Source: Fidelibacterota bacterium
Lineage (GTDB): Bacteria > Fidelibacterota > Marinisomatia > Marinisomatales > TCS55
Assembly (NCBI GenBank): GCA_045569015.1
Contig: JBJKZX010000002.1
Span: 301,962 to 365,961, forward strand
DNA length: 64,000 nt
Direction of reading: 5' to 3'
The stretch's first letter is position 1. Each line of letters starts with the position of its first letter. The position numbers were made by a program, and so were the translations under genes. Positions 38,135 through 60,412 of the stretch are shown here, piece after piece. The notes under the pieces are model-generated. The model saw only the letters and a program-made list of their open reading frames with translations. It did no database searches and was not told the DNA's origin.

Positions 38135-38812
38135 TTAATTTTTTGAGCTTAGCTGTTCAATTAAATCATTTACATCATTTAAAATATTTTTACATAAAAA
38201 CTCGAGAATACTGTGTGTGCTTTTATTTGCAGCTAAATAATTTTGGAATACCTGATTATCGATAATATTTTTTCTTGCTAAGTTGTTTGAATAGTCAAGA
38301 TTCCACATTCTTGTTTTTTTTGACATGACAAAGTTTTCTAAAATTACCTCATCCATTTGTTGGATAGTGTGCAAATGATAATCAGTTATTTCTTTCAAAA
38401 ATACATATCTCTTTTGATATAAATTTAAAATTCCGTTCCTTAAAGAATCGTCTTCAATCTTGTATATCAGCCCCAGACTTTCCAATGAATTAAAAATAGT
38501 GTTATCTAACCGTATCCCTGCATTGGTTGTTGTATTCTCAAAAGCTATTCTAAGTCTTTCATCAGATGAAAATTTTACTGAATCATTATTTTGAATATAT
38601 TCAAAGTGTACAATTTTTTTCTTATAATTATCTATATAACTCTCTAGTGCTGTTTTATCAGATTTAAGAGTTTCGCTTAAAGCATGGAGTGAGCGCTCAA
38701 TTTGATAGTTTAACTCACGAAAATCTTTATTGTTATCAATCCAAAGCGATCCACTAATTCCCAATAAAACTGCAATAAACTCTACCCCGCCCCTAGCTAA
38801 AATTTTATTCAT
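38135..38812 (-). CDS. ARGG-EF anchor family paralog 1 (single-pass membrane protein, DUF6090-like architecture)
   Basis: 225 aa. N-terminus MNKILARGGVEFIAVLLGISGSLWID, then a helical ectodomain carrying the shared central motif (..LYQKRY..). Its ATG overlaps the stop of paralog 2 (ATGA). Confidence 0.8.
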   Translation of the reverse strand: MNKILARGGVEFIAVLLGISGSLWIDNNKDFRELNYQIERSLHALSETLKSDKTALESYIDNYKKKIVHFEYIQNNDSVKFSSDERLRIAFENTTTNAGIRLDNTIFNSLESLGLIYKIEDDSLRNGILNLYQKRYVFLKEITDYHLHTIQQMDEVILENFVMSKKTRMWNLDYSNNLARKNIIDNQVFQNYLAANKSTHSILEFLCKNILNDVNDLIEQLSSKN

Positions 38813-39498
38813 CTATTTTTTTTTAATTTAGTATTTAGCTCATCATCAAGCTGTTTCTGTGTTTTGATCATCTCTTTTTTAGTTTCCTTCATCAGATCTA
38901 TAAAATAATTAAACATAAATTCATTTTTAATAACCCAATTATAAAATTCAGAACTATTTATAGCATTTAATACCTCATCAATATTGTATATAAAGCCTCT
39001 CGTCGAGTTGCTTAAATACCATGTCCAGTGATCGTCTCTCAATGTTATATCATCCATATATTTATTATTTGCATCCATTCTCACATAGGTCTGATCATAC
39101 AACCTGGTTAAAGAGTGAACAATTTTAAGGTTACTTGTGCGATTAAAATTTCCTGCTGATTTTGATGATAGATATGCAGATTTCTTTCCAAAAAAAGATC
39201 TATTTCCAAGTGGCTCTTTAAATATTGCTATTGTATCAAGCGCCTCTTTTCCGATTTTTGATTTTTCAAAAATTGTTAGAAATTCTCTAATCTCTGTTAA
39301 TTTGTTTTCATTATATTTAATTTTTTCAGAAACGACGCTTAAGTCATCTATTAGCTCATTGTTTATGGCAATTAAATCTTGATAAAGCTCTTTTCTTTGA
39401 GCATTATCATTGCTAACGCCATCAATCCATAAAGATCCGGATAAGCCTAATAAAACTGCAATAAACTCAATACCGCCTCTGGCCAAAATATTTTTCAA
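38809..39498 (-). CDS. ARGG-EF anchor family paralog 2
   Basis: The TTG at 39496-39498 gives MKNILARGGIEFIAVLLGLSGSLWID, aligned residue for residue with the other seven paralogs. AAGGA lies upstream. The longer track ORF (to 39546) would overlap the preceding microprotein ORF. Confidence 0.75.
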   Translation of the reverse strand: MKNILARGGIEFIAVLLGLSGSLWIDGVSNDNAQRKELYQDLIAINNELIDDLSVVSEKIKYNENKLTEIREFLTIFEKSKIGKEALDTIAIFKEPLGNRSFFGKKSAYLSSKSAGNFNRTSNLKIVHSLTRLYDQTYVRMDANNKYMDDITLRDDHWTWYLSNSTRGFIYNIDEVLNAINSSEFYNWVIKNEFMFNYFIDLMKETKKEMIKTQKQLDDELNTKLKKNR

Positions 39499-39502
39499 TT
39501 TA

Positions 39503-39700
39503 TTATCCTTTATTTTGAATATGAAGAGTGCCCGGAAGTGTGCCAATAAATATTATTAATGTGCCCCAATAATCAAATCCGATTGAAATACCAGAAAAAT
39601 AGTCCTTAATACCCAACCCAGAAAATATAATTAACATAAAGAGGTGGATAAAAAGTAAAGATTTCCTGATTCTTTTCTTTGTCATATTCTTTATAAACAT
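39503..39700 (-). CDS. Two-TM microprotein (65 aa; 60 aa if the start is MTKKRIRK)
   Basis: MFIKNMTKKRIRKSLLFIHLFMLIIFSGLGIKDYFSGISIGFDYWGTLIIFIGTLPG... has a basic N-terminus and two hydrophobic helices. It aligns with the 56-aa ORF at 41416-41586. It sits between paralogs 3 and 2 with gaps of 6 and 4 nt. Confidence 0.6.
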   Translation of the reverse strand: MFIKNMTKKRIRKSLLFIHLFMLIIFSGLGIKDYFSGISIGFDYWGTLIIFIGTLPGTLHIQNKG

Positions 39701-39706
39701 TGCATT

Positions 39707-40378
39707 TTATAGCTCTTTGATTTTGTTATTCAACATTATATCAACTTTCTTCATTTGATTTAATGCGCTTTCAGCTTTTATAATGTAAAAACGCTGTATT
39801 TCATCTATAAAAGTTTGGAGTGCGCCTAAATAATCATTAGAAAATATTTTTTTTAAATTTGTTTTTTTAACTTCTAATTCAAATGGGTCAGAACCAAAAT
39901 ATTTTATTCCAAAATCCGCAGAATACCAGAATGCGTCTAATTGCTCGCCATTCAAATCCATTCGAGAGTAAAAATGACCATAAATGATTCCGATTTCATT
40001 AGCTATTTCATCGTTGCCAAAGTAAGTAAGGCGACCACTTGAAACTGAAGCATCATATGCGGAAGAAGTGCCAAAAAAAGTTCCACTGTTCCAAACATTG
40101 CTAAGATTTATGATAAATTTTTCATAATCAAACTTTTCTTTATTTTTAATCATTTCTAAAGCCTTTAATCCGCTTTCAAATGATTCTTTTTGAACAGCTA
40201 TAACTCTCTCTAATAAAATTATATCCTTTCTTAAATCTTTTTGAATATTTATGTAATCTGATTTTAGTCGTTTTTCAATTTCTTTGTCTTGCTTCCATTC
40301 ATCAACATTAAAAGACATAGTGATGCCTAGCAACACTGCTAAAAATTCGATTCCTCCTCTCGCAAATATATTTTTCAC
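39707..40378 (-). CDS. ARGG-EF anchor family paralog 3
   Basis: 223 aa, GTG start, MKNIFARGGIEFLAVLLGITMSFNVDEWKQD. Central motif TFFGTSSAYDASVSSGRLTYF...IYGHFYSR. Confidence 0.8.
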   Translation of the reverse strand: MKNIFARGGIEFLAVLLGITMSFNVDEWKQDKEIEKRLKSDYINIQKDLRKDIILLERVIAVQKESFESGLKALEMIKNKEKFDYEKFIINLSNVWNSGTFFGTSSAYDASVSSGRLTYFGNDEIANEIGIIYGHFYSRMDLNGEQLDAFWYSADFGIKYFGSDPFELEVKKTNLKKIFSNDYLGALQTFIDEIQRFYIIKAESALNQMKKVDIMLNNKIKEL

Positions 40379-40405: not shown

Positions 40406-41419
40406 TTAATTATTAATAACTTTAAAAATATTTCCGCTTTTTCCAACAGCAAAGCCCACCCTGCTGTTTTTTGGAAATGCTATCGCAGTTAGGTTTTTTA
40501 TCCTACGATTTTCAATCATCCAATTCTTGCCGTTATCTTTTGATATATCTATACCTGTTGGACCAACTGCAATAAAAGTATTCCCTCTGATATGCGTAAC
40601 ACATTCACGGTATTCATCTAATTTATTTTCTGGTAAATGCCAAGTTTCACCTCCATCTTCAGTATATATCATCGTGTTTGAAATATTTTGATCTGTATAA
40701 TCGCCGCCCACAGCAACGCCTACTTTTCTATTTCTAAAAGCTACTGAATAAATACCTGTACTTTGGCCTCCATGAACAAGAGGTGTCTCTACGACAGTCC
40801 AATTTATCCCGCCATTAGTGCTTTTAAATACCCTAGACTTTAATCCACCCATACCAAGCCATGCTGTTTTATTTCCCCATACCGGTAGGCCCGTTCCGCT
40901 TGCAGCAAAACCATACTCAACATCAAGTTTGTCAGGTATTCCATCGGATGATATTTCCTGCCAAGTCTCTCCGCCATCATTGGTTTTAATTAAGTAATGT
41001 TTCCCATTAATAGGGTCACTGAATGCGATACCTCTCTTTTTACTCCAAAATGACATTCCATCAAAAAAAATATCTTTATGATCATTAAAATAAACTAGAT
41101 CCCAGTTCTTACCGCCATTTTTAGTTTTATAAAATCTAGCAGGACTAGAAATCCCCATAACAATAGCTGTATTTTTATCAAAAACCTCTATATCTCTAAA
41201 ATCAACAGTGCTGCTATTAGGAACCGATATATTTTCCCATGTATTGCCGCCATCATTGGTTTTTAAAACCGTTCCCCCTGTTCCGCTTACCCAGGCTATT
41301 TTTCTACTTATTACATCTAAGCCGCGGAAAGAAACCTCAACATCGCTATTGAGTTTTTCAAATGAAAGGCTTTGCCCTAGAGCAGGCAGTACAAATAATG
41401 TGAACCAGAAAGATTTCAT
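40406..41419 (-). CDS. Secreted BNR/Asp-box repeat beta-propeller (Ycf48-like)
   Basis: 337 aa with a signal peptide and six Asp-box-like motifs (TNDGGNTW, TKNGGKNW, TNDGGETW, STNGGINW, TEDGGETW, SKDNGKNW). Confidence 0.8.
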   Translation of the reverse strand: MKSFWFTLFVLPALGQSLSFEKLNSDVEVSFRGLDVISRKIAWVSGTGGTVLKTNDGGNTWENISVPNSSTVDFRDIEVFDKNTAIVMGISSPARFYKTKNGGKNWDLVYFNDHKDIFFDGMSFWSKKRGIAFSDPINGKHYLIKTNDGGETWQEISSDGIPDKLDVEYGFAASGTGLPVWGNKTAWLGMGGLKSRVFKSTNGGINWTVVETPLVHGGQSTGIYSVAFRNRKVGVAVGGDYTDQNISNTMIYTEDGGETWHLPENKLDEYRECVTHIRGNTFIAVGPTGIDISKDNGKNWMIENRRIKNLTAIAFPKNSRVGFAVGKSGNIFKVINN

Positions 41420-41586
41420 TTATTCACTGTCTTAATTAACTTAAACAACCAATATAGATAAGGAAGAACTAGGGGTATTATCAGTAGACCTACATCTATA
41501 TAATCTAAAGAACCTAAAATTAAAGTAGTTAGAACTACCGCAGTTGTAATAACAAATAAGGTTCGATTGTATATTATTTTTTTCAT
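41416..41586 (-). CDS. Two-TM microprotein (56 aa), not in the ORF track
   Basis: My translation is MKKIIYNRTLFVITTAVVLTTLILGSLDYIDVGLLIIPLVLPYLYWLFKLIKTVNK. Its TGA overlaps the ATG of the BNR gene (ATGA). It is homologous in outline to the ORF at 39503-39700. Confidence 0.55.
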   Translation of the reverse strand: MKKIIYNRTLFVITTAVVLTTLILGSLDYIDVGLLIIPLVLPYLYWLFKLIKTVNK

Positions 41587-41614: not shown

Positions 41615-42289
41615 TTAATTATTCTCTATGTAATCTTCAAGCTTATCCTTGACGCTATGCAATTGATCTTTCGTCTCCTGAAGTCTCGATATATAATTCC
41701 CAACACGTCCCCTAAAAGTTAAAACCTCATTTATAAAAACTTTTTCTGAAAAGAATTGCTCTAATTCTTTTTTATCATAATCAAAGCCGTTTCTAGCGTA
41801 TGCTATATTTTTACTCACGTACCTATCAAAAAATCGCAAAGACACCTGATCATAAATATCGCTATTTATTTTTAGACGTTCATAATAGTGATCATAAAGT
41901 CGTGATATTTCAGATATTAAAGTGTCATCACCGTAAAGGTTAAGTCTGCCTGTAGAATAAGAAAGCTTGTAAGATTTCGTGATTCCAAAAAATGTAGGAT
42001 ACCCCAATGAGGATAAATGTATTAGTAACGAATCCACATTTATTAAAGAGATGTCTTTAACGTTTCTCAAAATCGCATTACATGATTTTAAATCATCTTT
42101 ATTGCTTTCTATTACATTGTTTATTGTGCCTATATCTTCGTTGACATCAAGCAAGATATTTTTACAGTCTTTATTTAGAAGGTCTTTCTGCTTATTAGTG
42201 TCTTGCCACTCTTCTACATAGAATGAAAGGGCTATACCAAGGAATACAGCTATGAACTCTATCCCTCCTCTGGCTAATGTATTTTTCAT
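41615..42289 (-). CDS. ARGG-EF anchor family paralog 4
   Basis: 224 aa, MKNTLARGGIEFIAVFLGIALSFYVEEWQD. Central motif PTFFGITKSYKLSYSTGRLNLY...LYDHYYERL. Confidence 0.8.
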   Translation of the reverse strand: MKNTLARGGIEFIAVFLGIALSFYVEEWQDTNKQKDLLNKDCKNILLDVNEDIGTINNVIESNKDDLKSCNAILRNVKDISLINVDSLLIHLSSLGYPTFFGITKSYKLSYSTGRLNLYGDDTLISEISRLYDHYYERLKINSDIYDQVSLRFFDRYVSKNIAYARNGFDYDKKELEQFFSEKVFINEVLTFRGRVGNYISRLQETKDQLHSVKDKLEDYIENN

Positions 42290-42368
42290 AATCCTGCTAA
42301 ATTTTTCATAAAAAATATAAACAACATATTGGTTACTATGAACAAGGGTTTTACGTTAAATTTTATTA

Positions 42369-42722: not shown

Positions 42723-42742
42723 CTTTCAAGTCTTAACAAACA

Positions 42743-43063
42743 CTAATTAAACCAAACTCCATAACCCATCTTTCGCAAGTCATTACCTAGCATTTCTTCT
42801 ATCTCCTCTGCATCTTTTCTTGTTGGTATAGGATTGTACTTTTCGTAAAGATCCGGTCTAAGTTTAAGTCCATATTTTTTTGCATATACGTTCGCTTTAT
42901 AGCCTTCCTTGTGCTGCTCAAATCTTACGTAAGGCTTTTTAGATGACTGGCCTACATAAACGCACGGAACGCCTTTAAAATATTTCGGATTTTTATCTCG
43001 AAATTTTTTGATATCTAACACCGAAAGGTCTAATTCAATAACATATACAAAGTATTGTTTCAT
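42743..43063 (-). CDS. Stand-alone GIY-YIG-domain protein
   Basis: 106 aa with FVYVIEL (GIY-like), VYVGQS (YIG-like), RFEQHKEG (conserved Arg/His region) and a downstream acidic AEEIEE. Confidence 0.65.
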   Translation of the reverse strand: MKQYFVYVIELDLSVLDIKKFRDKNPKYFKGVPCVYVGQSSKKPYVRFEQHKEGYKANVYAKKYGLKLRPDLYEKYNPIPTRKDAEEIEEMLGNDLRKMGYGVWFN

Positions 43064-43095
43064 GTATTAAATCCAGCGATAAGTTTTTGATTAGC

Positions 43096-43770
43096 TTAAA
43101 CGCTCGGCCATTCAGGAGGATTATCAAATGGTTCAGATCCAGATGAAGTATCTCCATCAATTATTCCGTACGCAATGATTAATCCTAATATTACCAATAA
43201 TGCTCTCAGTCTATTCGACTGAAGCGATTGATTCTTTGCTATGCTTTTAAATTTTCCCTTAGGTGGTTTTACTTCGAGTGCTTTCCAGGTATGCATTCGC
43301 ATTGAAAGTATCATCTCATCAACATCCACTGTTTTTAAATTCATTCTTACAGACTTGACTTTATTTTTATTGAGTTCTCCTGATTCAGGAAAAGAATAGC
43401 GTATAAAATTTCCCGTATACTTATTACCAGATTTTTTTAAAGACCAAAACATAAAATTTTCAACTTTTAGAGTTTCGGATAGCTGTTTTAAGCATTTTTC
43501 TTCAAGGCATTCCTTGTATTCAAATTTTTCAAGTTGCTTATTTGAAACGGATTTAAAGATTAGCGTCTGGTTTATCTCATCTTTAATATATTGGCCGATA
43601 ACTTCCGACTCCATTTTGCTAAGACCAATAATACCCTGATTTATCACAACAATATCAATCGGTGATATTTCCATAAAAGTGGAGTCACGATCTATATTTT
43701 CTTGAGCCAATCCAATAGTGCTTAAAGCTAAAAAAAGTGTGTTTATAGCTATAGTTTGCAGATACTTCAT
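43096..43770 (-). CDS. Exported protein with C-terminal TM anchor, unknown function
   Basis: 224 aa with a signal peptide, a CLEEKC pair and a C-terminal hydrophobic helix (ALLVILGLIIAYGII). It starts 2 nt after the 1534-aa gene. Confidence 0.6.
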   Translation of the reverse strand: MKYLQTIAINTLFLALSTIGLAQENIDRDSTFMEISPIDIVVINQGIIGLSKMESEVIGQYIKDEINQTLIFKSVSNKQLEKFEYKECLEEKCLKQLSETLKVENFMFWSLKKSGNKYTGNFIRYSFPESGELNKNKVKSVRMNLKTVDVDEMILSMRMHTWKALEVKPPKGKFKSIAKNQSLQSNRLRALLVILGLIIAYGIIDGDTSSGSEPFDNPPEWPSV

Positions 43771-43772
43771 CG

Positions 43773-48377: not shown

Positions 48378-48417
48378 GAAAGATAAATCAGCAAGAATTG
48401 ACCGACAAACTATAATG

Positions 48418-54400: not shown

Positions 54401-54876
54401 CCAGGTGTTAACGCCACACCGGAGTTATTTTCATTATCTGTATATGAAGAACTGTTGAAATCAAACTTCGCGCGCACCTTTTGATTTCCTCTGTAAATAT
54501 CGTGTCCGTTTCCAGAAAGCATTGCTTGCGGCGTGTTCGGATCGTAACTCCAATCAAGAACAACTTTATCAGGAAAATAATCGTAGGTTGCTTTTAGCTT
54601 TATATTTTCAGGTTGTCTTTTAAATATATTCCAGTAACCAAGCTCAACCTGTTGGTTGGTGCCCACCATTGGTTTATCGGTTGTTTGAATGATTTGACCC
54701 ACAACAATACTAACGGTACCTTTTAACGCCTCTTGACCAGCAACTGCGCTAATAGTACCCTCTTGATTGCCTACTGCGCCACTAATGATCTTATATTCAA
54801 CCGAATTGCTGCTGTTTGAGACAGAGGTCTGCCCAACTAGCTGAGCAATAAATATTAAGGAATAAAGTTTTTTCAT
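48418..54876 (-). CDS. Giant multidomain T9SS cargo (Fn3-like, LamG-like, CarboxypepD_reg-like and unknown central region)
   Basis: 2152 aa with a signal peptide. The LamG/ConA-like block reads LFLDGNDDYASFS...WNHVSIVK...YRFYVNG...GNIDEFRIWG. The C-terminus QNYPNPFNPTTSIGFGV...GVYFVLMRSGSFMQTKKMILLK is a T9SS CTD. Confidence 0.88.
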   Translation of the reverse strand: MKKLYSLIFIAQLVGQTSVSNSSNSVEYKIISGAVGNQEGTISAVAGQEALKGTVSIVVGQIIQTTDKPMVGTNQQVELGYWNIFKRQPENIKLKATYDYFPDKVVLDWSYDPNTPQAMLSGNGHDIYRGNQKVRAKFDFNSSSYTDNENNSGVALTPGTEYTYTVKGSNAFGFDVTGDSYVGKTSSNGTITGFVQTSLGTDIPFVRMVATPNWGNSLFLDGNDDYASFSTDPAFNLAASDKGDTLTTEIWFNTPDVEGTQVILSKGSAWKLALKKDGSYNKLVYHQNGAEVMVSDKSISTNAWNHVSIVKTKKAAEKAEYRFYVNGSKILFNTGKDVVEVATKAATSDALLIGKDASGNFFRGNIDEFRIWGETRNANLALRPDEIKDNVDSTVIKKYFNVYLPYRVGGKVAQPTLLHYNNMDVGSGNSITNAVNQSLKGSLAGESDNSYWHVSDAPAYASAFTDLEGAYEIVNVNYGSGTNITVTPSKPFHVFSPSSNQTYLSDSNPVRNNVNFKVTNLQSISGYVRFDPQNCRGKNCGIPKVKILQNGEFLGTITNDEGYYLVEVEPGGDMRIMPDMPDRDSTDYRPYSASYTNVVKPKSRDFIDTFKRDLVGKIAGGTCQLALGPEGFSKVIATSANGCFSDTTTVDAGGNYKFRNMPIMAYNISIDVNTTRQYAPKVPNLLDIGTYFKNNGRTHDMQKAFDNADSTWYGDKDTVDFSYFAPVAAKFTAGFKRNIVGDYSFKQNKSDTVDVAVYEGYYNDKECALTGGFIKIRDYVGDRYSGVESDTLIFSLDTLGIARYPIMPGVPNTSPDGAFPYKKKFEVLASDSSEQRQTTINEWASVLGHKPVSVDFTTTAPSVPFLILRQPPGDGSSSTFTTESSSSFSLGFSMGASAGFEQETSISAGVETTTMIAPMGIGTAFDISAEASVTNTSSISGSVTSAYETSWEYTSSESFSTAGSDIFVGGAMNILYGTTDILSLEEDENKVWDYSVKRDILFLPKGFATTFQYSRTYIENTLLPELKRLSLIDSTKQKDVDRWSEILVYADNLAKDASFVENRSFDGGAGSYTSSSSASSTEALSLEVDMEIETSIATAVGVEVMGVGIGSTSTVSFGMSLGSSVSSSKTNTTTIEYTLADDDEADDYSVKIKTDKVYGTPVFEVVAGNSSCPYEEWTNADGVVVTNPQDEPFMQFQSASTATNVLPDGTAEYRVLLRNESKSQTTRTYSLSSVLASNPRGAEILINGAIGIIPFTLDYLETDTATVTVRRPQDTDFYEFKDLRLKFAPECETNYAGVTQGYQASFTANFARPCSKVDFYNIADDWVVNSTFNDTLAVTFTGYDLTQSYFEQIELQFSPLEESKWYSIPEAMIVTDSLRTDNRQYETTYWDLSTLKDGTYDLRFKTVCLNGALVNLMQPKRGIIDREIPVLLGNAEPIDKVLNQNDEIAFNFNEDLSAASISQINFEINDPYGVGEITAFEFSANENRVTADFTLANREIENHNIDIRFFGYTDIYGNVGDTVTHSFTVDRNPISWSTPEISTVAIIGEPTIQTVELNNIGSNAKEFSVTGLPNWLTVATPEGTLNPGGNWEIDFRISPDINVGDFVDTVFAETPEGNEPLAFKVASMCEYPNWDIDPASYQYTMNVVGKIGVLGTISEDKYDRVAAVVDGEYRGYADLVYDTDLKEYRAYLTVYSNASSGELVEFHIWDRSNCVEWWKTDQTIAFNADGSSGAPNEPLAINATGEVAQEFMFPIGWDWMSFNLESNEMLIDDIFSDLDPSFGDRIIGQDGFAQYSDATGWIGTLADEPLNKREMFMVNLSSKDSTDFIGVRVGADTIPIQLEQGWNWLSYLPSFNSDLGNALKTLSPDQNDLIKSQTQFAQYVSDVGWVGNLKRLKPSEGYKIQMANADTLTYPYIMSGQSAKTLDKEIIFPEAPWDTVLWRNYKNSMNVTAVIDNNIAEQMNSPEDVVVAISNGEIRGFTRPEFIEGLDSYRLFMTIFSNSPTGELIELKFWDADKDIIYSSKENLSFTNNDMIGGAIDPWVLSLKPLTKGDRGFVPDKYVLDQNYPNPFNPTTSIGFGVPEDSHISLSIYNILGEEIHTLINDQFMRAGYQTIMWNARAVNGDRVPSGVYFVLMRSGSFMQTKKMILLK

Positions 54877-54897
54877 TTTTACAAAGGTTTCAATCGA

Positions 54898-56280
54898 TTA
54901 ATAGGGAACTGCATAGACTGTTGCTTCACCCCTACTCCAATTAATCTGTGTGCTGATAAGTTTAATGGATGTTACATTTGTTCCATTTCCAAACCGACCA
55001 TAACTATTACAGTTAACAGGATTTGTAGCTGAGTTGCCAATTTTACCATTAATACTCGCCCCATTACCATCGGGGTACCGCTGTATCGTAACCTCGCCAC
55101 TTACCCAGCCACCTTGATTCCATCCTTGGCGCCCTAAATTCACACCTAAGTTACCGACATTGTTATGGCCCCAGCCACCACTCCAAAACTTGCATTCAGA
55201 TTCTCCTCTATGAACATTGTTCGCCGTATTATTATTTAGGCGAATGTAAAAATGAGAGTCATTTTTTCCGCTAGCGTAAACAGTAAAAAATAATTTATAT
55301 CTTTTATGTTTATCCAAGTTTAGACCTGTGAATTCAATCACTTTATTACTGAAGTTACTGCTAGACTTTTTATCAACGATATACATGATATTAGGTGCTT
55401 CAAAATTATTGGTGGTATATACTTTATTTCCAGGCTTTGCATCAATGCGAACATCGCCAAGCATTCCCTTTATGTACATAACGGTACTATTTTTGGTTAA
55501 CCATCCAAACACGCCTTGAGCTCCTTGGCTTGTACCTTTGGGCATAAGATGTATTTTTGAATGGTCATCACCTACAATAGTTAATCCAGTACCGTTTTGA
55601 TCTATTCTCACTTTACCGTCAACGTGAAGCTTGTCAGTTGGAGCACCAGTACCTACGCCCAAACGACCATCCTGCCTTAGAGTAATACCCTTACTCCATT
55701 CATCTTTACCATTTATTTTAGGGGCAATGTATAGCTTGTCATAATTCGCATTACTTCTTGGATGAATAGTATAGCCTGTTTGAGAATCATCGTGCTCTAA
55801 GCGAAGGTTGCTCTCAATCTTAACTTCACCTTTAACATGAAGTTCTCTGTCAGGGCTTGTGGTTCCAAATCCTACATTCCCAGAAGCAGGAATAACATTG
55901 GTAGCACCATCGAGTTGCGCCATGATTGCATACGGGGTCATAGTTAATGGAGATCTTGGAGACAGCTCACCGTTTGAGCCAATTTCTAAACTTAAAAAGA
56001 ACTTATCGTTAAAATTTAACGATGCCATTGATGTTTCAGAGCCCAAATTCGTTGAAAAAACACCGTTAACCACTTTCAAGGTCTGCGCTTCACTCCAAAC
56101 AGCATTTCCTCCTGAAAGAGCCTTGTAGAGCCTAAACGTAATGGTATGATCACCATCTTTAAGCGATGCGCCTGAATTGTCTCTTGCAATTCCTTGAATG
56201 CTGATAAGCTGCGCGAATGCTACGTTTAAAATAAATAGTAGTGAAATAATCTTTTTTGAAAGGTTCATAACTTTTTCCAT
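54898..56280 (-). CDS. Secreted tail-fibre-like protein with unassigned G/N/W-rich C-terminal domain
   Basis: 460 aa with a signal peptide. The N-terminus IQGIARDNSGASLKDGDHTITFRLY...VWSE...NGVFS resembles the tail-fiber-domain proteins of Bacteroidota. It also has GNVGFGTTSPDRELHVKG and RLGVGTGAPTDKLHVDG repeats, and no T9SS CTD. Confidence 0.65.
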   Translation of the reverse strand: MEKVMNLSKKIISLLFILNVAFAQLISIQGIARDNSGASLKDGDHTITFRLYKALSGGNAVWSEAQTLKVVNGVFSTNLGSETSMASLNFNDKFFLSLEIGSNGELSPRSPLTMTPYAIMAQLDGATNVIPASGNVGFGTTSPDRELHVKGEVKIESNLRLEHDDSQTGYTIHPRSNANYDKLYIAPKINGKDEWSKGITLRQDGRLGVGTGAPTDKLHVDGKVRIDQNGTGLTIVGDDHSKIHLMPKGTSQGAQGVFGWLTKNSTVMYIKGMLGDVRIDAKPGNKVYTTNNFEAPNIMYIVDKKSSSNFSNKVIEFTGLNLDKHKRYKLFFTVYASGKNDSHFYIRLNNNTANNVHRGESECKFWSGGWGHNNVGNLGVNLGRQGWNQGGWVSGEVTIQRYPDGNGASINGKIGNSATNPVNCNSYGRFGNGTNVTSIKLISTQINWSRGEATVYAVPY

Positions 56281-56374
56281 AATTAAAATGTTAAGATTTT
56301 ATGCAAATGAGTACTATTAAAGTAGAGACGTGCTTACAAAGAATAAAGTGTTTAAAAACAATTTTAATAAAAAA

Positions 56375-57577
56375 TTACAGGATTTTATTAAAATCGCTAC
56401 CAGAAGGATGCTGGAACACTTTTAAGTCAAATTCTGGAACTACAGCAAGCAGGTGATCAAAGATATCAGATTGAATTGATTCATAATTAATCCAGTCGGT
56501 ATCATTTGCGAAAACATATATCTCAATCGGTAGTCCGCTAGATGAAGGTGAGAGCTGCCTTACCAAGAATGTCATTTCATCATGTATCTTGTTGTGATTA
56601 CGAAGATACCCTTCAATATACGCGCGAAACGTTCCAATGTTTGTTAAAGACCTGCCATTGATTTGACCATCGTCCACAACATTATTTTCAGTATTGAACT
56701 TCTCAATTTCAGATAATTTTTGATTAATATATCTTCCAATTACTTTAAACTTTCTAAACCTTTCAGTCATCTCATTGCTGCAAAATTTGATGCTATTCAT
56801 ATCAATATTAATGGAGCGCTTGATTCTTCTCCCGCCACTTTCAGACATGCCCCTCCAATTTTTAAACGAAGAATCTAACAGTTTATTAGTGGGAATAATG
56901 CTAATAGTCTTATCCCAGTTTTGAATCTTTATCGAATGCAGGGCAATATCGATCACATCGCCATCCGCGCCAAACTGAGGAGCTTCTATCCAATCCCCTA
57001 CTTTAAACAAGTCATTTGAGCTGATTTGAACGCTAGAAACAAGAGATAGGATAGTGTCTTTGAATACCAGAAGTAGAACCGCAGTTAAGGCTCCAATACC
57101 GCTTAAAAAGTAAACCGGTGACCTACCTGTTAGAAGTGCAATAACAATGATAAAGCCAAATATTCCGACCAGAAGCTTTGCTACCTGCACATAGCTTTTT
57201 ATACTAAATTTTTGTGAAAAACTGCTCTTTGCATGCATTTGATTCAGTGCATTTAAAAACGCATTTAAAAATGAAATAAAAATAACCGCAATCATTGAAA
57301 ATAGCACCCTGTCAAAAATGTCGGGCCATGCTAGAATATTTTTAAAATTGTAAATAAATATTAACGGGATTAATAATGGCAATCTGTTGAATACCTTTTT
57401 TTCTATGAGAACGTCGTCAAATTCTGTTGAGGTTTTTTGAAAGAACATTGAAATTGCTCTTAGAATTACGCGGCTGGAAATTAGATATAAAAGTGCGCTA
57501 AAAATTATCACCACAGCATACAAGGTATACCAGCGGTCATCTGTGATTGATAAGATTAGGTTTTGAATACTTTGCAT
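56375..57577 (-). CDS. MscS-family mechanosensitive channel
   Basis: 400 aa with N-terminal TM helices, then DLFKVGDWIE...GDVIDIALHSIKIQNWDKTISIIPTNKL, the MscS beta-domain pattern. Confidence 0.85.
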   Translation of the reverse strand: MQSIQNLILSITDDRWYTLYAVVIIFSALLYLISSRVILRAISMFFQKTSTEFDDVLIEKKVFNRLPLLIPLIFIYNFKNILAWPDIFDRVLFSMIAVIFISFLNAFLNALNQMHAKSSFSQKFSIKSYVQVAKLLVGIFGFIIVIALLTGRSPVYFLSGIGALTAVLLLVFKDTILSLVSSVQISSNDLFKVGDWIEAPQFGADGDVIDIALHSIKIQNWDKTISIIPTNKLLDSSFKNWRGMSESGGRRIKRSINIDMNSIKFCSNEMTERFRKFKVIGRYINQKLSEIEKFNTENNVVDDGQINGRSLTNIGTFRAYIEGYLRNHNKIHDEMTFLVRQLSPSSSGLPIEIYVFANDTDWINYESIQSDIFDHLLAVVPEFDLKVFQHPSGSDFNKIL

Positions 57578-57580
57578 GAA

Positions 57581-58261
57581 TTAATTCCCTGTCTGTTTTA
57601 AGTGTTTATCTATTGAAATCTTGGTATTGATCATCTGAATACGCGTATCGCTCAATCTATTGGTATAAAAATTCTCAACATAATCTAAAATCCAATACAT
57701 CGCATTTTCCATTTTATCGGAAAGGAATATTGATCGAGTATTTTCATTGAATACATTTTTACCATGGATCAAGCTATAAAAATCTATAAAATAATCCCTC
57801 TTAAGTATTTGCAATCTTTGATCGTAAATCTCACTATTTGTATCGAGCCGTTTATAAAAATGTTCGTACAGAAGAGATATCTCGTTACTAATATTCTGTT
57901 CAGTGGAAAAATTTAATCTGCCGCTAGACACCGATGCCTTGTAGGCTGTTAACGATCCAAAAAATGTTGGAGCTGTAACTTCCTGAAGTGAAGTAAGAAT
58001 TTTTTCTTCTTCAAAATTCAATTCTTTATTACTGTATTTGATTAATGTTTTTAACAGTTCAGACTGCTTATCAACCGAAGCAATAATCCTATCGATGTTT
58101 TTAATATCTATTTCAATCTCATCGCGAATATTGATATAGTCTTCAAGAATCTTATCTTGAATATCTCTATCCTGTCTCCAGTCTTCGACCCAAAGTGATA
58201 TAGTTATGCCAAATAGTACGGCTAAAAACTCAACTCCTCCTCTGGCTAAAGTATTTTTCAT
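57581..58261 (-). CDS. ARGG-EF anchor family paralog 5
   Basis: 226 aa, MKNTLARGGVEFLAVLFGITISLWVEDWRQD. Central motif PTFFGSLTAYKASVSSGRLNF...LYEHFYKRL. Its ATG overlaps the paralog 6 stop. Confidence 0.8.
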   Translation of the reverse strand: MKNTLARGGVEFLAVLFGITISLWVEDWRQDRDIQDKILEDYINIRDEIEIDIKNIDRIIASVDKQSELLKTLIKYSNKELNFEEEKILTSLQEVTAPTFFGSLTAYKASVSSGRLNFSTEQNISNEISLLYEHFYKRLDTNSEIYDQRLQILKRDYFIDFYSLIHGKNVFNENTRSIFLSDKMENAMYWILDYVENFYTNRLSDTRIQMINTKISIDKHLKQTGN

Positions 58262-58950
58262 TTATTTAGCTCTTCATTAATAAGCTCATTCACAGCATTC
58301 ATGGATTCTACAATTTTTTGAAGCATATGATGCACAACCCTTGTCATGGAAATTGTTTTCATAATTTCTTTTTGCATACTATTATTGCAAAAAACTTCTT
58401 CATTCATTAAAAAATGTTTTTCAACAATCTGAAAATCTTTATCTCGGTAGTATGAAAAATTTTCTACAAGAAATTCAGCCAAACCGTACTGATAGAGATT
58501 GGTTATAATGGGATCAACATTTTCATATCTTTTAAACTTAAAATCATATAAATCAATTAATTTGTCTTTTAATTGCTGATTCTCGATATACTTCATTTCG
58601 CTATTTGAAACAAGCGATCTGTAAACACCGTATCGTGGAAAAAGACTGTTGCTGCCTTTAAAAACTGATACAAGTAGAGTCATTAGCTCTTTTGGTTTTA
58701 TATTTTTCGCATCAGAGCAATCAAGGTTTATCAATATCTCCTGCGAATCAATAGACCCAAGCATGTCTTTTAGTACAAGCTGTGCATAATCCATGTCTTG
58801 ATTAAGGCTTACTTGCAAGTCAGATAAAAGACTTTTTTCGGTTTTTAGCATCGATGATTCTTCTATCTGTTTATCAATGTATAAGGATAGTGTTATGCCT
58901 AAAAGCACCGCGATAAACTCAACCCCTCCCCTTGCAAGCGTATTTTTCAT
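58258..58950 (-). CDS. ARGG-EF anchor family paralog 6
   Basis: 230 aa, MKNTLARGGVEFIAVLLGITLSLYID. ATGA overlap with paralog 7. Confidence 0.8.
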   Translation of the reverse strand: MKNTLARGGVEFIAVLLGITLSLYIDKQIEESSMLKTEKSLLSDLQVSLNQDMDYAQLVLKDMLGSIDSQEILINLDCSDAKNIKPKELMTLLVSVFKGSNSLFPRYGVYRSLVSNSEMKYIENQQLKDKLIDLYDFKFKRYENVDPIITNLYQYGLAEFLVENFSYYRDKDFQIVEKHFLMNEEVFCNNSMQKEIMKTISMTRVVHHMLQKIVESMNAVNELINEELNK

Positions 58951-59711
58951 TGAGCAGGTGCTATCTTTAGCTCTTCTTCAACTAATATTTTAAGATCGGA
59001 AAGAGTTTGTTTAAAGTTTCTTATAAATAACATTACAAAGTACCTATGTCTGTTTTTTAAGTTGATGTAGGTACGAACATAATCTTTTGTTAGAAAATAT
59101 TTGAGCTGCTCTATTTGATCATCGTAATTGTCTACGTTATCTCGAAAACGGTTTCTCAAGGTTAGTTGAGAAATAGATAGCAGTTCAGCTAATTTCGGGT
59201 CATTTTGATTAATCAAAGTATTCCTAAAATCAATTTGCATATCTATCTCAGTTTGAACATTCTTCAAAACAAACTCTAAGTCTGTTTTGACTAGTTCATT
59301 AATTTTCTTTCTGATTTCCATATTTTGAATTTCTTTCAAAGATCCATCTTGCATAATCAATTCAATTGATGAAATGGGAGGATGAAATTCACGAAAGTCT
59401 AAAAAAGTGTTATGAAAACTACCTCTTGTACCATTTTTGCTTAACGCTACAGCTGCCGAATCAATATTCATAGTGTCCCAATTATTGGCAAAATAATCCA
59501 TCCACGTGCTGTCTAATTGAAAGGCGGGGTCTCTTCTCTCTTTTATGAAATTTTCGGTTTGAACGATATCTTCGTAGACGGCCTCAAGTATCATAACTTG
59601 TTTTTCATTTAAATCGCGAGCTTTTCTGTTTTCATCTATCCAAAGTGAGCTAGTGATGCCTAAAAGAACAGCAATGAACTCAATACCTCCTCTTGCTAAG
59701 ATATTTTTCAC
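58947..59711 (-). CDS. ARGG-EF anchor family paralog 7
   Basis: 254 aa, GTG start, MKNILARGGIEFIAVLLGITSSLWIDEN. GTGA overlap with paralog 8. Confidence 0.8.
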   Translation of the reverse strand: MKNILARGGIEFIAVLLGITSSLWIDENRKARDLNEKQVMILEAVYEDIVQTENFIKERRDPAFQLDSTWMDYFANNWDTMNIDSAAVALSKNGTRGSFHNTFLDFREFHPPISSIELIMQDGSLKEIQNMEIRKKINELVKTDLEFVLKNVQTEIDMQIDFRNTLINQNDPKLAELLSISQLTLRNRFRDNVDNYDDQIEQLKYFLTKDYVRTYINLKNRHRYFVMLFIRNFKQTLSDLKILVEEELKIAPAQ

Positions 59712-60412
59712 AGTTCTAATTCATTTCGTAATAATTCGCGTATAGCAATTACCTTTGCAACCTGAACTTCGTATTGTTGTTTTGCAAATTTTTGCCAGGT
59801 AAGCATATTGGATGCAAAAAACCGTATTTTATTTATATCGGGCATTTTATACAGACTAACTTTTGGAAAATTCTTGTATACTTTATTTTTAGAATTATTT
59901 TTGTCGTAAAGGTTCTCATTTGCAAAGTCGGATAAATATGGAATAATTTGATTTTGGACGAAGTTATTTTGGTAATGATCCAGTGTTTTTATAAATCCAA
60001 TATCTGTATAATATCTATGAAGTTCTATTACCAGGTCTTCATTTGATATTAAATCAGTTCTTCCAGAATTTTTTAATGCCATATATTCTTCATCATTATG
60101 AACAAAAATGGTTGCAATCATCATCGCAGATAGGTCCTTCTCAAAATCGTTATTGATACTTTCAAGCGTTGGATTGCTATCGCACCACTTAATAACGTTT
60201 GTTGAGCCCTGAATACCTCTTTCGTATGCATTGATATTCCATGATCCATCTGAGGAGTCAGCAACCAGATTATCGTATAATCTTCTAAGTATTTTTGTAT
60301 TTTGCTCTTTCTGGTCCTTTTCTTTTACGATACTATCAATTGAAAGAGATCCGCTAAGGCCTAATAAAACAGCTAAAAATTCAATCCCTCCTCTTGCAAA
60401 TGCATTCTTCAA
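59708..60412 (-). CDS. ARGG-EF anchor family paralog 8
   Basis: 234 aa, TTG start, MKNAFARGGIEFLAVLLGLSGSLSID. TTGA overlap with the SixA-like gene stop. Confidence 0.78.
   Translation of the reverse strand: MKNAFARGGIEFLAVLLGLSGSLSIDSIVKEKDQKEQNTKILRRLYDNLVADSSDGSWNINAYERGIQGSTNVIKWCDSNPTLESINNDFEKDLSAMMIATIFVHNDEEYMALKNSGRTDLISNEDLVIELHRYYTDIGFIKTLDHYQNNFVQNQIIPYLSDFANENLYDKNNSKNKVYKNFPKVSLYKMPDINKIRFFASNMLTWQKFAKQQYEVQVAKVIAIRELLRNELEL

What the first reader, a model, noticed from the sequence alone, without database searches (positions are those of the whole stretch)
38135..60412. Eight divergent paralogs of a membrane-anchored protein family, in two coupled arrays, bracket a T9SS cargo cluster
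Eight ORFs of 223-254 aa share one architecture. They lie at 38135-38812, 38809-39498, 39707-40378, 41615-42289, 57581-58261, 58258-58950, 58947-59711 and 59708-60412. Each has a 7-residue basic N-terminus, one TM helix, then a ~200-aa helical ectodomain. The first ~24 residues are nearly invariant. The rest is strongly diverged apart from one central motif (TFFGxxxAYxxSxSSGRLxxx....LYxHxYxR). Four copies form a back-to-back array with ATGA/GTGA/TTGA overlaps. The other four are interleaved with two microproteins and a BNR propeller. The genes between the arrays are two giant T9SS substrates, a tail-fibre-like protein, an MscS channel and a GIY-YIG protein. Length and anchor shape remind me of Pfam DUF6090, an uncharacterised Bacteroidota family. 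A constant membrane anchor with diversified ectodomains, amplified eightfold beside cell-surface giants, suggests a sensing, docking or surface-assembly role that nothing here explains.
Basis: partly seen in the sequence, partly recalled or inferred. Interest (0 to 1): 0.75.

Follow-up and report, generated by a model that had tools for sequence, protein, structure and literature searches.

The report
Eight DUF6090 membrane-anchored paralogs
Eight old, divergent copies of an uncharacterised single-pass membrane protein (Pfam DUF6090) sit in a variable genomic island of a marine Marinimicrobia bacterium. The secreted giant proteins between them are an optional insertion, not a functional partner.

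Summary
Eight intact minus-strand genes share a strongly conserved 24-residue N-terminus (74% pairwise identity) and very divergent bodies (17%). Pfam DUF6090 passes its cutoff for three of them. AlphaFold models of B1 and of the most divergent copy, B3, give the same plan: an anchor helix running into a periplasmic three-helix bundle with a membrane-distal cap. No solved or viral structure matches either model.

The link to T9SS cargo fails. In a contig from the same population the 13.3-kb cargo block is absent, and MscS abuts GIY-YIG. In related genomes the SixA-to-tRNA-Met interval holds between one and at least seven copies. T9SS sorting domains are no more common next to family genes than in control genes.

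Tandem amplification with a constant anchor is typical of the family. It has 5,846 clusters at 50% identity, and Winogradskyella carries 22 tandem copies in 20.7 kb. Scrambled synonymous sites show that selection on the peptide, not gene conversion, keeps the anchor constant. dN/dS of 0.03-0.10 argues against an arms race.

My best model is inferred, not shown. The anchor, with an invariant Glu aligned with Ala/Gly/Ser on one helix face, docks into a shared membrane partner or co-assembles the paralogs. The bundles then supply different periplasmic surfaces. Function remains unknown.

The parts
38135..38812 (-). Paralog A1 (225 aa). It has the family anchor and a very divergent periplasmic domain.
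   Evidence: No Pfam hit. Weak collinear profile links to B2 (82%) and B1 (73%).
38809..39498 (-). Paralog A2 (229 aa, TTG start). It overlaps A1 by ATGA.
   Evidence: DUF6090 is subthreshold at 12.1 bits. Its ectodomain is homologous to A3, A4 and B1 at 98% or higher hhalign probability.
39503..39700 (-). Small protein mp65 (65 aa) with two hydrophobic segments, lying between A3 and A2.
   Evidence: Sequence. It is conserved at 62% in the same position in L003.
39707..40378 (-). Paralog A3 (223 aa, GTG start), a DUF6090 member.
   Evidence: DUF6090 at 45.7 bits. Orthologs are 92% identical in L003 and 84% in L023.
40406..41419 (-). BNR/Asp-box beta-propeller protein (337 aa) with an N-terminal signal-like segment, interleaved in array A.
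   Evidence: PSII_BNR 3.5e-17 and BNR repeats.
41416..41586 (-). Small protein mp56 (56 aa) with two hydrophobic segments. It overlaps the BNR start by ATGA.
   Evidence: No homolog was found in the other loci.
41615..42289 (-). Paralog A4 (224 aa), a DUF6090 member.
   Evidence: DUF6090 at 39.6 bits. The top-scoring hit of the paralog-profile search, P0270 (224 aa, on the same 1.245-Mb contig), is named 'DUF6090 family protein' by NCBI and matches A4 by length and contig. The same gene is present in L072.
43067..56368 (-). Optional 13.3-kb cassette. It holds a 224-aa protein, a 1534-aa PKD/T9SS-CTD protein, a 2152-aa LamG/T9SS-CTD protein and a 460-aa exported protein. It is not part of the family system.
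   Evidence: Absent in L072, where window 56369 joins 43066. Absent in L003. Domains.
42743..43063 (-). Small GIY-YIG protein. In cassette-free variants it lies 13 nt after the MscS stop.
56375..57577 (-). MscS-family channel (400 aa), starting 3 nt after B1.
   Evidence: MS_channel_2nd 3.9e-16. It is adjacent to a family member in 7 Marinimicrobia loci, in two different gene orders.
57581..58261 (-). Paralog B1 (226 aa), a DUF6090 member and the ancestral copy at this locus.
   Evidence: DUF6090 at 36.2 bits. The only or SixA-adjacent copy in L050, L055 and L023 is its ortholog at 78%, 67% and 70%. Model pLDDT is 94.2.
58258..58950 (-). Paralog B2 (230 aa), with the family anchor and a divergent body.
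   Evidence: Ortholog is 94% identical in L003.
58947..59711 (-). Paralog B3 (254 aa, GTG start), the most divergent body. It has the same fold plus a membrane-proximal insertion.
   Evidence: Model pLDDT 90.5, pTM 0.85. Orthologs at 61-73% lie in other arrays or loci. It is absent from L003.
59708..60412 (-). Paralog B4 (234 aa, TTG start). It overlaps the SixA-like stop by TTGA.
   Evidence: Orthologs are found in L003 (88%), L046 (71%) and L034 (67%).
60409..60909 (-). SixA-like histidine phosphatase, the first gene of the operon and the fixed left border of the variable interval.
   Evidence: His_Phos_1 3.7e-11. It is immediately upstream of the family gene in L003, L023, L050, L055 and L070-L077.
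38033..38107 (+). tRNA-Met, the fixed right border of the variable interval.
   Evidence: The same tRNA lies between the last family gene and GDH in L050 and L023.

Best explanation
What it is (high confidence, about 0.9). The eight genes are ancient paralogs of DUF6090. This is a very large family found in the FCB group (Marinimicrobia, Bacteroidota and some other MAGs). Its members are bitopic inner-membrane proteins with N-in/C-out topology.

Each protein has a short basic tail and one TM helix. An invariant Glu (E11) lines up with Ala14, Gly18 and Ser22 on a single face of that helix. The helix continues as the first strand of a periplasmic three-helix bundle of about 45 residues per helix, roughly 65 Å long. 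The bundle carries a small cap at its membrane-distal end, and this cap holds the family's only other conserved residues.

The genes lie in a flexible interval between a SixA-like gene and tRNA-Met. That interval gains and loses family copies and unrelated cassettes. The T9SS cargo block is one such cassette.

How it works (inferred, about 0.4). The anchor is the functional constant. Its Glu-bearing small-residue face packs against other TM helices. That partner is either a shared membrane complex, as in TonB/TolA or ExbD/TolR docking into ExbB/TolQ, or the anchors of sister paralogs, giving mixed oligomers. Each divergent bundle would then offer a different periplasmic binding surface, held at a fixed distance from the membrane. 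Translational coupling inside the arrays fits co-assembly in fixed proportions.

Shown: architecture, fold, selection regime, family size and island dynamics. Inferred: topology (from charge distribution) and helix-helix packing through the conserved face. Speculative: the identity of the partner and of the periplasmic targets.
For: Family membership:
- DUF6090 is above its cutoff for A3, A4 and B1.
- NCBI uses the DUF6090 name for the exact B1 and A4 proteins.
- A profile of the eight paralogs hits 5,846 clusters at 50% identity.

Fold:
- B1 model: pLDDT 94.2, pTM 0.84, helices 2-77, 122-166 and 182-223 with a cap at 78-121.
- B3 model: pLDDT 90.5, same plan.

The anchor is constrained at the peptide level:
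- Anchor identity is 74% against 17% for the body.
- Codon position 3 identity is 41% in the anchor codons.
- The same holds in 22 Winogradskyella paralogs, where position 2 is 98% and position 3 is 53% identical.

A single conserved helix face:
- Family-wide conservation is E11 99%, G18 98% and S22 90%.
- Helical-wheel angles are E11 20°, A14 320°, G18 0° and S22 40°. The pattern A-x3-G-x3-S is a small-xxx-small packing motif by established knowledge.

Old, individually conserved paralogs under purifying selection:
- Orthologs of single paralogs are 55-78% identical across genera, similar to SixA and MscS.
- dN/dS is 0.03-0.10, against 0.04-0.10 for the neighbours.

Operon coupling: 4-nt overlaps run from SixA to B1, and B1 ends 3 nt before MscS. 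106 of 123 adjacent genes are on the same strand.

Island dynamics: the SixA-to-tRNA-Met interval holds 1 copy in L050, 3 in L023, at least 7 in L003, 8 in the window and 9 in L070.
Against: - No partner has been identified. No gene family is consistently linked to DUF6090.
- ExbB/TolQ-like genes are not enriched nearby. There is one weak MotA_ExbB hit 6 kb from an array in L067.
- The acidic residue is Glu, not the Asp found in ExbD, TolR and MotB.
- The AlphaFold models are monomers, so they say nothing about packing.
- The B3 model used an alignment dominated by other subfamilies and may lean towards the family fold.
- A strongly conserved anchor could equally be a sorting or processing signal, or a self-assembling pore.
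- The conserved cap residues could be purely structural.
Confidence: 0.4

Rival explanations
1. The paralogs would serve the neighbouring T9SS substrates, by docking, sorting or helping to assemble the giant surface proteins.
For: In this window the two arrays flank two Por_Secre_tail giants. The family and T9SS are both found in the FCB group.
Against: The cargo block is absent in L072, which has an identical B1, and in L003. There MscS directly abuts GIY-YIG. Por_Secre_tail occurs in 3 of 115 adjacent genes and 4 of 115 control genes. L050 keeps one family copy with no cargo at all. The roughly 65-Å periplasmic bundle on the inner membrane cannot reach the cell surface.
Confidence: 0.04
2. 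The anchors self-assemble into a small ion-conducting or membrane-perturbing oligomer, with a ring of Glu residues at the cytoplasmic mouth. The periplasmic bundle gates or senses, possibly working with the co-transcribed mechanosensitive channel in osmotic homeostasis.
For: The pattern A-x3-G-x3-S with Glu on the same face matches the glycine-zipper pattern common in channel-forming helices (the pattern itself is established knowledge). B1 is coupled to MscS with a 3-nt gap. MscS is adjacent to a family member in 7 loci, in two gene orders and with two paralog types. MscL or MscS-like genes lie within 6-8 kb in two Flavobacteria loci.
Against: MscS adjacency is limited to one Marinimicrobia clade, which amounts to two independent arrangements. 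More than 50 loci lack it. The Flavobacteria mechanosensitive genes are not adjacent to the arrays. One polar residue is thin evidence for a pore.
Confidence: 0.12
3. The constant N-terminus is a sorting or processing signal, recognised by a dedicated insertase, an intramembrane protease or a prepilin-type peptidase. The paralogs would then be a set of cargo proteins, or pilin-like subunits, sharing one export route.
For: A constant N-terminal hydrophobic segment, variable bodies and coupled tandem genes are also the pattern of pilin and pseudopilin operons (established knowledge). The Marinimicrobia type reads R-G-G-I-E-F, and the Flavobacteria type A-I-G-E-I. One JGI record names a member 'pseudopilin PulG'.
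Against: No N_methyl or prepilin model hits any of the eight proteins at E<=1, or P0441 at E<=0.5. Gly before the Glu is not conserved across the family, with examples such as KKYFIELM, RFALEFT and SIIIEIV. The Glu would be at +1 to +3, not +5. The fold is all-helical with no beta-sheet head. No pilus or T2SS genes occur in the window or in the sampled loci.
Confidence: 0.08
4. The arrays are a protective repertoire. They would be immunity proteins against periplasm-acting toxins, or blockers of phage DNA entry, with one paralog per threat.
For: The genes form tandem arrays of divergent membrane-anchored periplasmic proteins in a flexible island next to a tRNA gene. In L068 and L069 the family sits among HigB toxins, transposases and PycTM. 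A small neighbour has a borderline VgrG3_C-like hit of 26.9 bits against a cutoff of 27.
Against: No PADLOC hit. No PHROG, viral-contig or phage-genome homolog. No toxin genes are paired with the family. dN/dS is 0.03-0.10, and orthologs are conserved across genera at the same rate as housekeeping neighbours, which does not look like an arms race. Many copies are singletons inside ordinary enzyme operons.
Confidence: 0.08
5. The paralogs are membrane tethers or escorts for co-transcribed exported enzymes such as peptidases, esterases and beta-lactamase-fold hydrolases.
For: Immediately adjacent same-strand genes include:
- M28 and M20 peptidases, alpha/beta hydrolases, S9 peptidase and DUF885;
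- GH16 with a T9SS C-terminal domain, which lies 377 nt downstream of the family gene in L016;
- an FGE-sulfatase/hydrolase fusion, overlapping the extra paralog of L070 by 4 nt, and a PF00144 beta-lactamase overlapping a family gene in L065.
PF00144 lies within 5 kb of the family in 3 of 8 sampled Flavobacteria contexts.
Against: With a crude signal-peptide test, exported or membrane proteins make up 54% of downstream neighbours against 43% of controls, p = 0.14. The counts are inflated by orthologous synteny. Arrays of 22 copies have no interleaved enzymes.
Confidence: 0.12

Closest known systems
Pfam PF19578 (DUF6090), named 'DUF6090 family protein' by NCBI
   Same: A3, A4 and B1 pass the curated cutoff. 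All eight share the family's anchor (E-x6-G-x3-S/A), its length of about 225-255 aa, and, for the two copies modelled, its helical plan. The exact B1 and A4 sequences already carry the name in NCBI.
   Different: A1, B2, B3 and B4 get no Pfam hit, and A2 is subthreshold. The Marinimicrobia type has a 7-residue tail (MKNxLARGG) in place of the roughly 25-residue basic tail of the Flavobacteria type (MIKFFRKIRxxL...KYxKYAIG). The family has no assigned function. No paper in the searched library mentions it.
TonB/TolA-type and ExbD/TolR/MotB-type anchors of proton-driven 5:2 motors (design analogy only)
   Same: Both have N-in/C-out single-pass topology with a short cytoplasmic tail. Conserved polar or small residues lie on one face of the TM helix. 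A carboxylate sits near the cytoplasmic end of the helix, as in ExbD, TolR and MotB. TolA also has a helical periplasmic arm. The logic is the same: a constant anchor with varied periplasmic domains, as in multiple TonB paralogs.
   Different: No sequence or fold similarity was detected. The residue is Glu, not Asp. There is no SHLS motif, no peptidoglycan-binding or TonB_C domain, and no linkage to exbB, tolQ or motA.
Type IV pilins and T2SS pseudopilins
   Same: Both have a short basic leader followed by a strongly conserved hydrophobic helix containing a Glu, with variable C-terminal bodies. Both occur as several translationally coupled paralogs in a row.
   Different: No prepilin cleavage or methylation motif hits. 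Gly at -1 is not conserved in the family. The Glu is not at +5. The body is an all-helical bundle, not an alpha-beta pilin head. No assembly genes are nearby.
Elongated three-helix-bundle receptor and surface families (trypanosome HpHbR, Borrelia OspC and PFam12 BBH37)
   Same: These are among the best, non-significant, Foldseek neighbours. They are long helical bundles anchored at one end with a membrane-distal head, and they occur as multigene families.
   Different: Foldseek E-values are 0.07 or higher and TM-scores are 0.45 or lower. They come from different organisms, use a different anchoring mode (GPI or lipid) and sit in a different compartment (cell surface versus periplasm). This is a generic helical resemblance only.

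Membership tests
Pfam DUF6090 (PF19578) | Score at or above the curated gathering cutoff of 23.5 bits | tested here: inconclusive
   Met by A3 (45.7), A4 (39.6) and B1 (36.2). A2 scores 12.1. A1, B2, B3 and B4 have no hit at E<=1.
Pfam DUF6090 (PF19578) | N-terminal TM helix with the family's conserved Glu, Gly and Ser/Ala, followed by a helical domain of about 200 aa | tested here: met
   E11, G18 and S22 are invariant in all eight copies and 90-99% conserved in 98 diverse members. The B1 and B3 models share the three-helix-bundle plan.
Pfam DUF6090 (PF19578) | Ectodomain homology independent of the anchor | tested here: inconclusive
   A2, A3, A4 and B1 give 98-99.8% hhalign probability with each other. 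A1, B2 and B4 give only 61-82% to some member. B3 gives 40% or lower.
Type IV pilin / pseudopilin | Prepilin-type N-terminal cleavage and methylation motif (Pfam N_methyl, NCBIfam TIGR02532) | tested here: not met
   No hit for the eight proteins at E<=1 in Pfam or NCBIfam. No hit for the JGI 'PulG'-named member P0441 at E<=0.5.
Type IV pilin / pseudopilin | Alpha-beta head domain packed on the C-terminal half of helix 1 | tested here: not met
   DSSP on both models shows helices only and no strands.
T9SS machinery or cargo | Por_Secre_tail CTD, or homology to Por/Gld components, or conserved linkage to cargo | tested here: not met
   No such Pfam hit in the eight proteins. The cargo block is dispensable. 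There is no CTD enrichment among neighbours.
ExbD/TolR/MotB or TonB/TolA | Sequence or fold homology to these families, and linkage to an ExbB/TolQ/MotA gene | tested here: not met
   No Pfam, NCBIfam or PDB sequence hit. Foldseek probability for TolQRA and ExbBD chains is 0.18 or lower. No MotA_ExbB appears among the top neighbour families. Functional analogy was not tested.
Known anti-phage defence or phage proteins | Match to PADLOC or PHROGs models, or presence in viral genomes | tested here: not met
   PADLOC gave none. PHROGs gave only two marginal anchor-only hits at E about 2e-3 to 4e-3. IMG/VR gave none. Phage tblastn gave none.

The most novel reading that the evidence does not exclude
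DUF6090 proteins would be a previously unrecognised class of interchangeable periplasmic 'arms'. Their invariant Glu-bearing anchor would plug into a common energised or signalling membrane complex of FCB bacteria, in a role like that of TonB or TolA. Alternatively, the anchors would co-assemble into combinatorial hetero-oligomers. Arrays of 8 to more than 22 paralogs would then supply a repertoire of periplasmic specificities. That would define a new envelope system spanning thousands of marine Bacteroidota and Marinimicrobia lineages.
Probability: 0.15. Interest if true: 0.75.

Novelty: new member of a known kind. Interest (0 to 1): 0.4.

Why it matters
DUF6090 is large, with 5,846 clusters at 50% identity. 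It is found in abundant marine heterotrophs, and it is kept in many copies even in small Marinimicrobia genomes. Yet no paper in the searched library mentions it.

This analysis gives the family a confident structural plan. It identifies the anchor, rather than the variable domain, as the most constrained part. It shows that constant-anchor tandem arrays recur in two phyla. It also removes a tempting but false association with T9SS cargo.

That turns a vague 'DUF' into a testable problem. What does a membrane-embedded Glu on a small-residue helix face bind, and why do cells need many versions of the periplasmic bundle? The locus is also a clean example of a flexible genomic island, with fixed borders at SixA and tRNA-Met, in an uncultured marine lineage.

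Tried and rejected
- Gene conversion or a recombination cassette as the cause of the constant N-terminus. Rejected: synonymous sites are scrambled in the window and in Winogradskyella.
- Prepilin-like processing. Rejected: no motif hits, Gly is not conserved, and the fold is all-helical.
- Fold identification. Foldseek against PDB for two models and against BFVD for one gave nothing at E<1e-3, only generic helical bundles. PDB sequence profiles gave only coiled-coil noise.
- Phage or defence origin. PADLOC, PHROGs, IMG/VR and phage tblastn were all negative.
- Conserved gene neighbour. Clustering neighbours across 64 loci found none in more than 7 loci.
- Enrichment of T9SS CTD among neighbours. 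None was found.
- Enrichment of signal-peptide-like neighbours. Not significant: 54% against 43%, p = 0.14, with a crude classifier.
- Sigma-70 promoter and terminator scans were at chance level and uninformative. FCB promoters also differ from that consensus.
- The apparent 'different cargo' in L071 turned out to be the same DNA as the window, with a broken gene call.
- The 79-nt overlap of BLAST segments at the L070 insertion reflects about 80% similarity of the anchor-coding 5' ends. I do not claim it proves recombination at the anchor.
- A look-up of the window's MscS protein by exact sequence found nothing.
- A literature search for DUF6090 and PF19578 gave 0 papers.

Full report
OBSERVATION

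All eight ORFs are present on the minus strand at the stated coordinates. I call them:
- A1: 38135-38812
- A2: 38809-39498
- A3: 39707-40378
- A4: 41615-42289
- B1: 57581-58261
- B2: 58258-58950
- B3: 58947-59711
- B4: 59708-60412

Their alignment has 11 invariant columns, all in the first 22 residues: M1 A6 R7 G8 G9 E11 F12 A14 V15 G18 S22. Pairwise identity is 74% over columns 1-24 and 17% over the rest.

The 4-nt start/stop overlaps are real: SixA/B4 TTGA, B4/B3 GTGA, B3/B2 ATGA, B2/B1 ATGA, A2/A1 ATGA and mp56/BNR ATGA. B1 ends 3 nt before MscS.

They are a BNR propeller, a small GIY-YIG protein, MscS, a His_Phos_1 (SixA-like) protein and two giants with T9SS C-terminal sorting domains. 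The exception is the 'tail-fibre-like' label for 54898-56280, which has no family match.

The first 24 codons are only 41% identical at third positions, against 91% at second positions. The constant N-terminus is therefore maintained by selection on the peptide, not by recent duplication or gene conversion.

WHAT THE PROTEINS ARE

Pfam DUF6090 (PF19578) passes its curated cutoff for A3, A4 and B1. It is subthreshold for A2 and silent for A1, B2, B3 and B4. NCBIfam, PADLOC and PHROGs give nothing useful.

The exact B1 sequence is on record as 'MAG: DUF6090 family protein [Candidatus Neomarinimicrobiota bacterium]' on a 1.245-Mb contig. A 224-aa protein on the same contig, which matches A4 by length and rank, carries the same name. 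A2 is on record as 'hypothetical protein'. The window therefore comes from a marine Marinimicrobia (SAR406-type) MAG.

A profile of the eight paralogs finds 5,846 clusters at 50% identity with E<=1e-3. These include the classical Flavobacteria type, whose N-terminus reads MIKFFRKIRxxL...KYxKYAIGEIxLVVIGILIALQINNWNE.

Across 98 diverse members the conserved positions, in B1 numbering, are as follows:
- In the TM helix: E11 (99%), G18 (98%) and S22 (90%).
- Further along: D52, F100, Y107, S112, G114 (95%) and Y132 (93%).

The RGG of the Marinimicrobia type is not conserved across the family.

With the anchor removed, A2, A3, A4 and B1 are clearly homologous to each other, with hhalign probabilities of 98-99.8%. 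A1, B2 and B4 link only weakly (61-82%, collinear alignments). B3 does not link at all. The 'one central motif' therefore holds for about half of the copies.

STRUCTURE

The AlphaFold2 model of B1 has pLDDT 94.2 and pTM 0.84. One continuous helix, residues 2-77, forms the anchor and then the stalk. A cap of short helices at 78-121 carries the TFFG...SSGRL motif. Two further long helices span 122-166 and 182-223. Together they form a three-helix bundle of about 45 residues per helix, with the conserved cap and the C-terminus at the membrane-distal end.

B3 is the most divergent copy. Its model has pLDDT 90.5 and pTM 0.85 and the same plan, with extra short helices at 172-206. One caveat applies: the B3 alignment is dominated by other subfamilies.

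Foldseek finds nothing below E = 1e-3 in PDB for either model, or in BFVD for B1. The best neighbours are designed bundles, the trypanosome HpHbR, Borrelia OspC and BBH37, BAR domains, TorS and ClyA-type toxins, all with TM-scores of 0.45 or lower. PDB sequence profiles return only coiled-coil noise.

The charge distribution points to N-in/C-out topology. K2 and R7 precede the helix, and the Flavobacteria type has a strongly basic 25-residue tail. The 'ectodomain' is therefore periplasmic and about 65 Å long (45 residues at 1.5 Å each). This is inference from the sequence.

On a helical wheel E11, A14, G18 and S22 lie at 20°, 320°, 0° and 40°. That is one face, with the small-xxx-small (A-x3-G-x3-S) pattern typical of tight helix-helix packing. 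The pattern itself is established knowledge.

CONTEXT: THE T9SS LINK FAILS

A scan of 185,579 species genomes found 63 loci, almost all in Marinimicrobia MAGs and SAGs. Most have one copy within ±10 kb. Some have arrays: L003 has 7, L001 has 5, L020 has 4, and L005 and L023 have 3 each. Single genomes carry several loci.

Synteny is decisive. The gene order DUF4886 - p200 - SixA ... tRNA-Met - GDH - PPDK/REC is fixed, and what lies between SixA and tRNA-Met varies:
- L050: one copy, the B1 ortholog at 78%.
- L055: B1, MscS and an M1 peptidase.
- L023: B1, MscS, an M1 peptidase, an ABC-2 transporter, A3 and one more copy.
- L003: B4, B2, B1, MscS, GIY-YIG, p117, an FGE-sulfatase/hydrolase gene, A3, mp65, A2 and two more copies. 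There is no B3 and no T9SS cargo.

Contigs that encode an identical B1 protein also differ among themselves:
- L072 joins window position 56369 directly to 43066. The 13.3-kb block holding both giants (43067-56368) is absent, and 13 nt separate the MscS stop from the GIY-YIG start.
- L070 carries an extra 3 kb between B4 and B3. It holds a ninth paralog and a 790-aa FGE-sulfatase/alpha-beta-hydrolase protein that overlaps it by 4 nt.

Among 115 genes immediately adjacent to family members, 3 carry Por_Secre_tail, against 4 of 115 control genes at least four genes away. No neighbour family occurs in more than 7 of 64 loci.

The arrays therefore do not 'bracket' the cargo in any functional sense. 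The cargo is an optional cassette in a flexible island.

OTHER CONTEXT LEADS

MscS is next to a family member in 7 loci. There are two gene orders, involving two different paralog types. This is the best specific association, but it is confined to one clade.

SixA is coupled upstream of the family gene in all variants of this locus.

Adjacent genes are often hydrolases such as M28, M20, S9, alpha/beta hydrolases, DUF885 and GH16. PF00144 beta-lactamase-fold genes lie within 5 kb of the family in 3 of 8 sampled Flavobacteria contexts, and in L065 the gene overlaps a family member. However, the counts are inflated by shared ancestry. A crude signal-peptide test gives 54% against 43% in controls, p = 0.14. 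I treat this as a lead, not a finding.

THE PATTERN IS GENERAL

In Winogradskyella maritima, 22 family ORFs fill 20.7 kb on one strand, and many overlap their neighbour. All share an almost invariant anchor region of about 47 residues with divergent bodies. Their anchor codons are 98% identical at position 2 but only 53% at position 3. Other Flavobacteria loci have 1 to 4 copies.

'Constant anchor, divergent bundle, tandem amplification' is therefore a signature of DUF6090 in at least two phyla.

SELECTION

Individual paralog types have orthologs at 55-78% identity in other genera. That is the same range as SixA (70-75%) and MscS (67-70%) in the same genomes.

Between the window and L003, dN/dS is 0.03-0.10 for five paralogs. 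It is 0.04 for MscS, 0.10 for SixA and 0.03 for GIY-YIG. The paralogs are old, each is individually constrained, and they are not in an arms race. Array composition, in contrast, is fluid. B3 and B4 orthologs sit in quite different loci elsewhere.

MECHANISM

Shown: the architecture, the fold, a family-wide invariant Glu on a small-residue helix face, purifying selection on the whole protein with extreme constraint on the anchor, operon coupling, and the absence of a fixed genomic partner.

Inferred: the anchor is an interaction module. It packs against a common membrane partner or against sister anchors. The divergent bundles provide distinct periplasmic surfaces at a set distance from the membrane. 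The nearest design analogies are the TonB/TolA and ExbD/TolR/MotB anchors. There is no homology to them, and the acidic residue here is Glu rather than Asp.

I give this model about 0.4. The rivals are:
- tether or escort for co-transcribed enzymes: about 0.12
- self-assembling pore or MscS accessory: about 0.12
- sorting or processing signal, including the pilin-like idea: about 0.08
- immunity or exclusion repertoire: about 0.08
- T9SS coupling: about 0.04

The pilin idea deserved a test because of the R-G-G-I-E-F and A-I-G-E-I starts and one JGI 'PulG' label. It fails on motif models, on Gly conservation and on fold.

NOVELTY AND VERDICT

The proteins are members of a catalogued family of unknown function. 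Several of them are too divergent for the Pfam model. The eightfold array is one instance of a family-wide habit.

What remains interesting is the family itself. It is very large, it lacks any literature in the searched library, it has a confident but unmatched fold, and it has an unusually constrained Glu-bearing anchor. Interest is moderate at 0.4.

Noticed in passing
window 38033-60909; L050, L023, L003, L055, L070, L072: The interval between the SixA-like gene and tRNA-Met is a flexible genomic island with fixed borders. It holds 1 gene (about 0.75 kb) in L050 and about 22 kb in this window. Its G+C drops to 0.30-0.33 at 38-44 kb, against about 0.37 elsewhere.
   Followed up: yes
window 56369-61171 and 41615-43066, compared with L003: Synonymous divergence between the window and L003 is mosaic along adjacent genes. 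dS is 0.33-0.36 for B2 and B1, 0.56-1.0 for A3, A2 and MscS, and 1.9-3.0 for SixA, B4 and GIY-YIG. This suggests recombination between lineages inside the island.
   Followed up: partly
L064 (Winogradskyella maritima GCA_042650215.1, JBHSAT010000004.1, 1535858-1556574): 22 tandem DUF6090 ORFs lie within 20.7 kb, and the array runs off the locus start. This is one of the largest single-family tandem arrays I have seen in a flavobacterial chromosome.
   Followed up: partly
L064 298-1059; L068 10888-11640; L069 5150-5902: A DUF3667 membrane protein (PF12412) lies immediately next to DUF6090 genes in two unrelated Flavobacteria contexts. It is a possible candidate partner. It was not seen in the Marinimicrobia loci.
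   Followed up: no
window 61008-61610 (+): A 200-aa exported protein carries an extreme Asp/His/Gly-rich stretch (DDHADEGDDHDHDHGDGDDHDDEGG). It ends in alternating hydrophobic residues and a C-terminal Phe, like an outer-membrane beta-barrel. It might bind metal. It is conserved at about 40% next to SixA in L003, L023, L050 and L055.
   Followed up: no
window 33557-36544 (+): A 995-aa protein combines response-regulator receiver domains, DUF5752 and a PPDK_N (PEP-utilising, ATP-grasp) domain. This is an unusual signalling and phosphotransfer fusion. It is conserved at 73-77% in L023 and L050.
   Followed up: no
window 42369-42722 (+): A 117-aa helical protein has a borderline T6SS_VgrG3-like_C hit of 26.9 bits against a cutoff of 27. 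It is conserved at 77% in L003 and present in L072. The hit is probably spurious, but it sits at the junction of the two arrays.
   Followed up: no
window 39503-39700 and 41416-41586 (-): Two small ORFs, each with two hydrophobic segments, are interleaved in array A. mp65 is conserved at 62% in the same position in L003, so it is probably a real gene. mp56 has no homolog in the fetched loci.
   Followed up: partly
L071 10493-16983, compared with window 48300-54876: The 2152-aa LamG/T9SS gene is called as three shorter genes in L071, although the DNA is 99.5% identical. A small indel near window 49633-49645 breaks the frame. This may be an assembly error or a natural pseudogene.
   Followed up: partly
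window 29333-29417 and 27991-29385 (-): The tRNA-Leu (gag) overlaps the 5' end of the 464-aa ORF as listed from its TTG start. The real start of that gene must lie further downstream.
   Followed up: no
window 12218-16951 (-) and 1388-4051 (-): A SusC/SusD-like pair and a further FG-GAP T9SS cargo gene lie elsewhere in the window. T9SS substrates are common in this genome, which helps explain the chance adjacency to the arrays.
   Followed up: no
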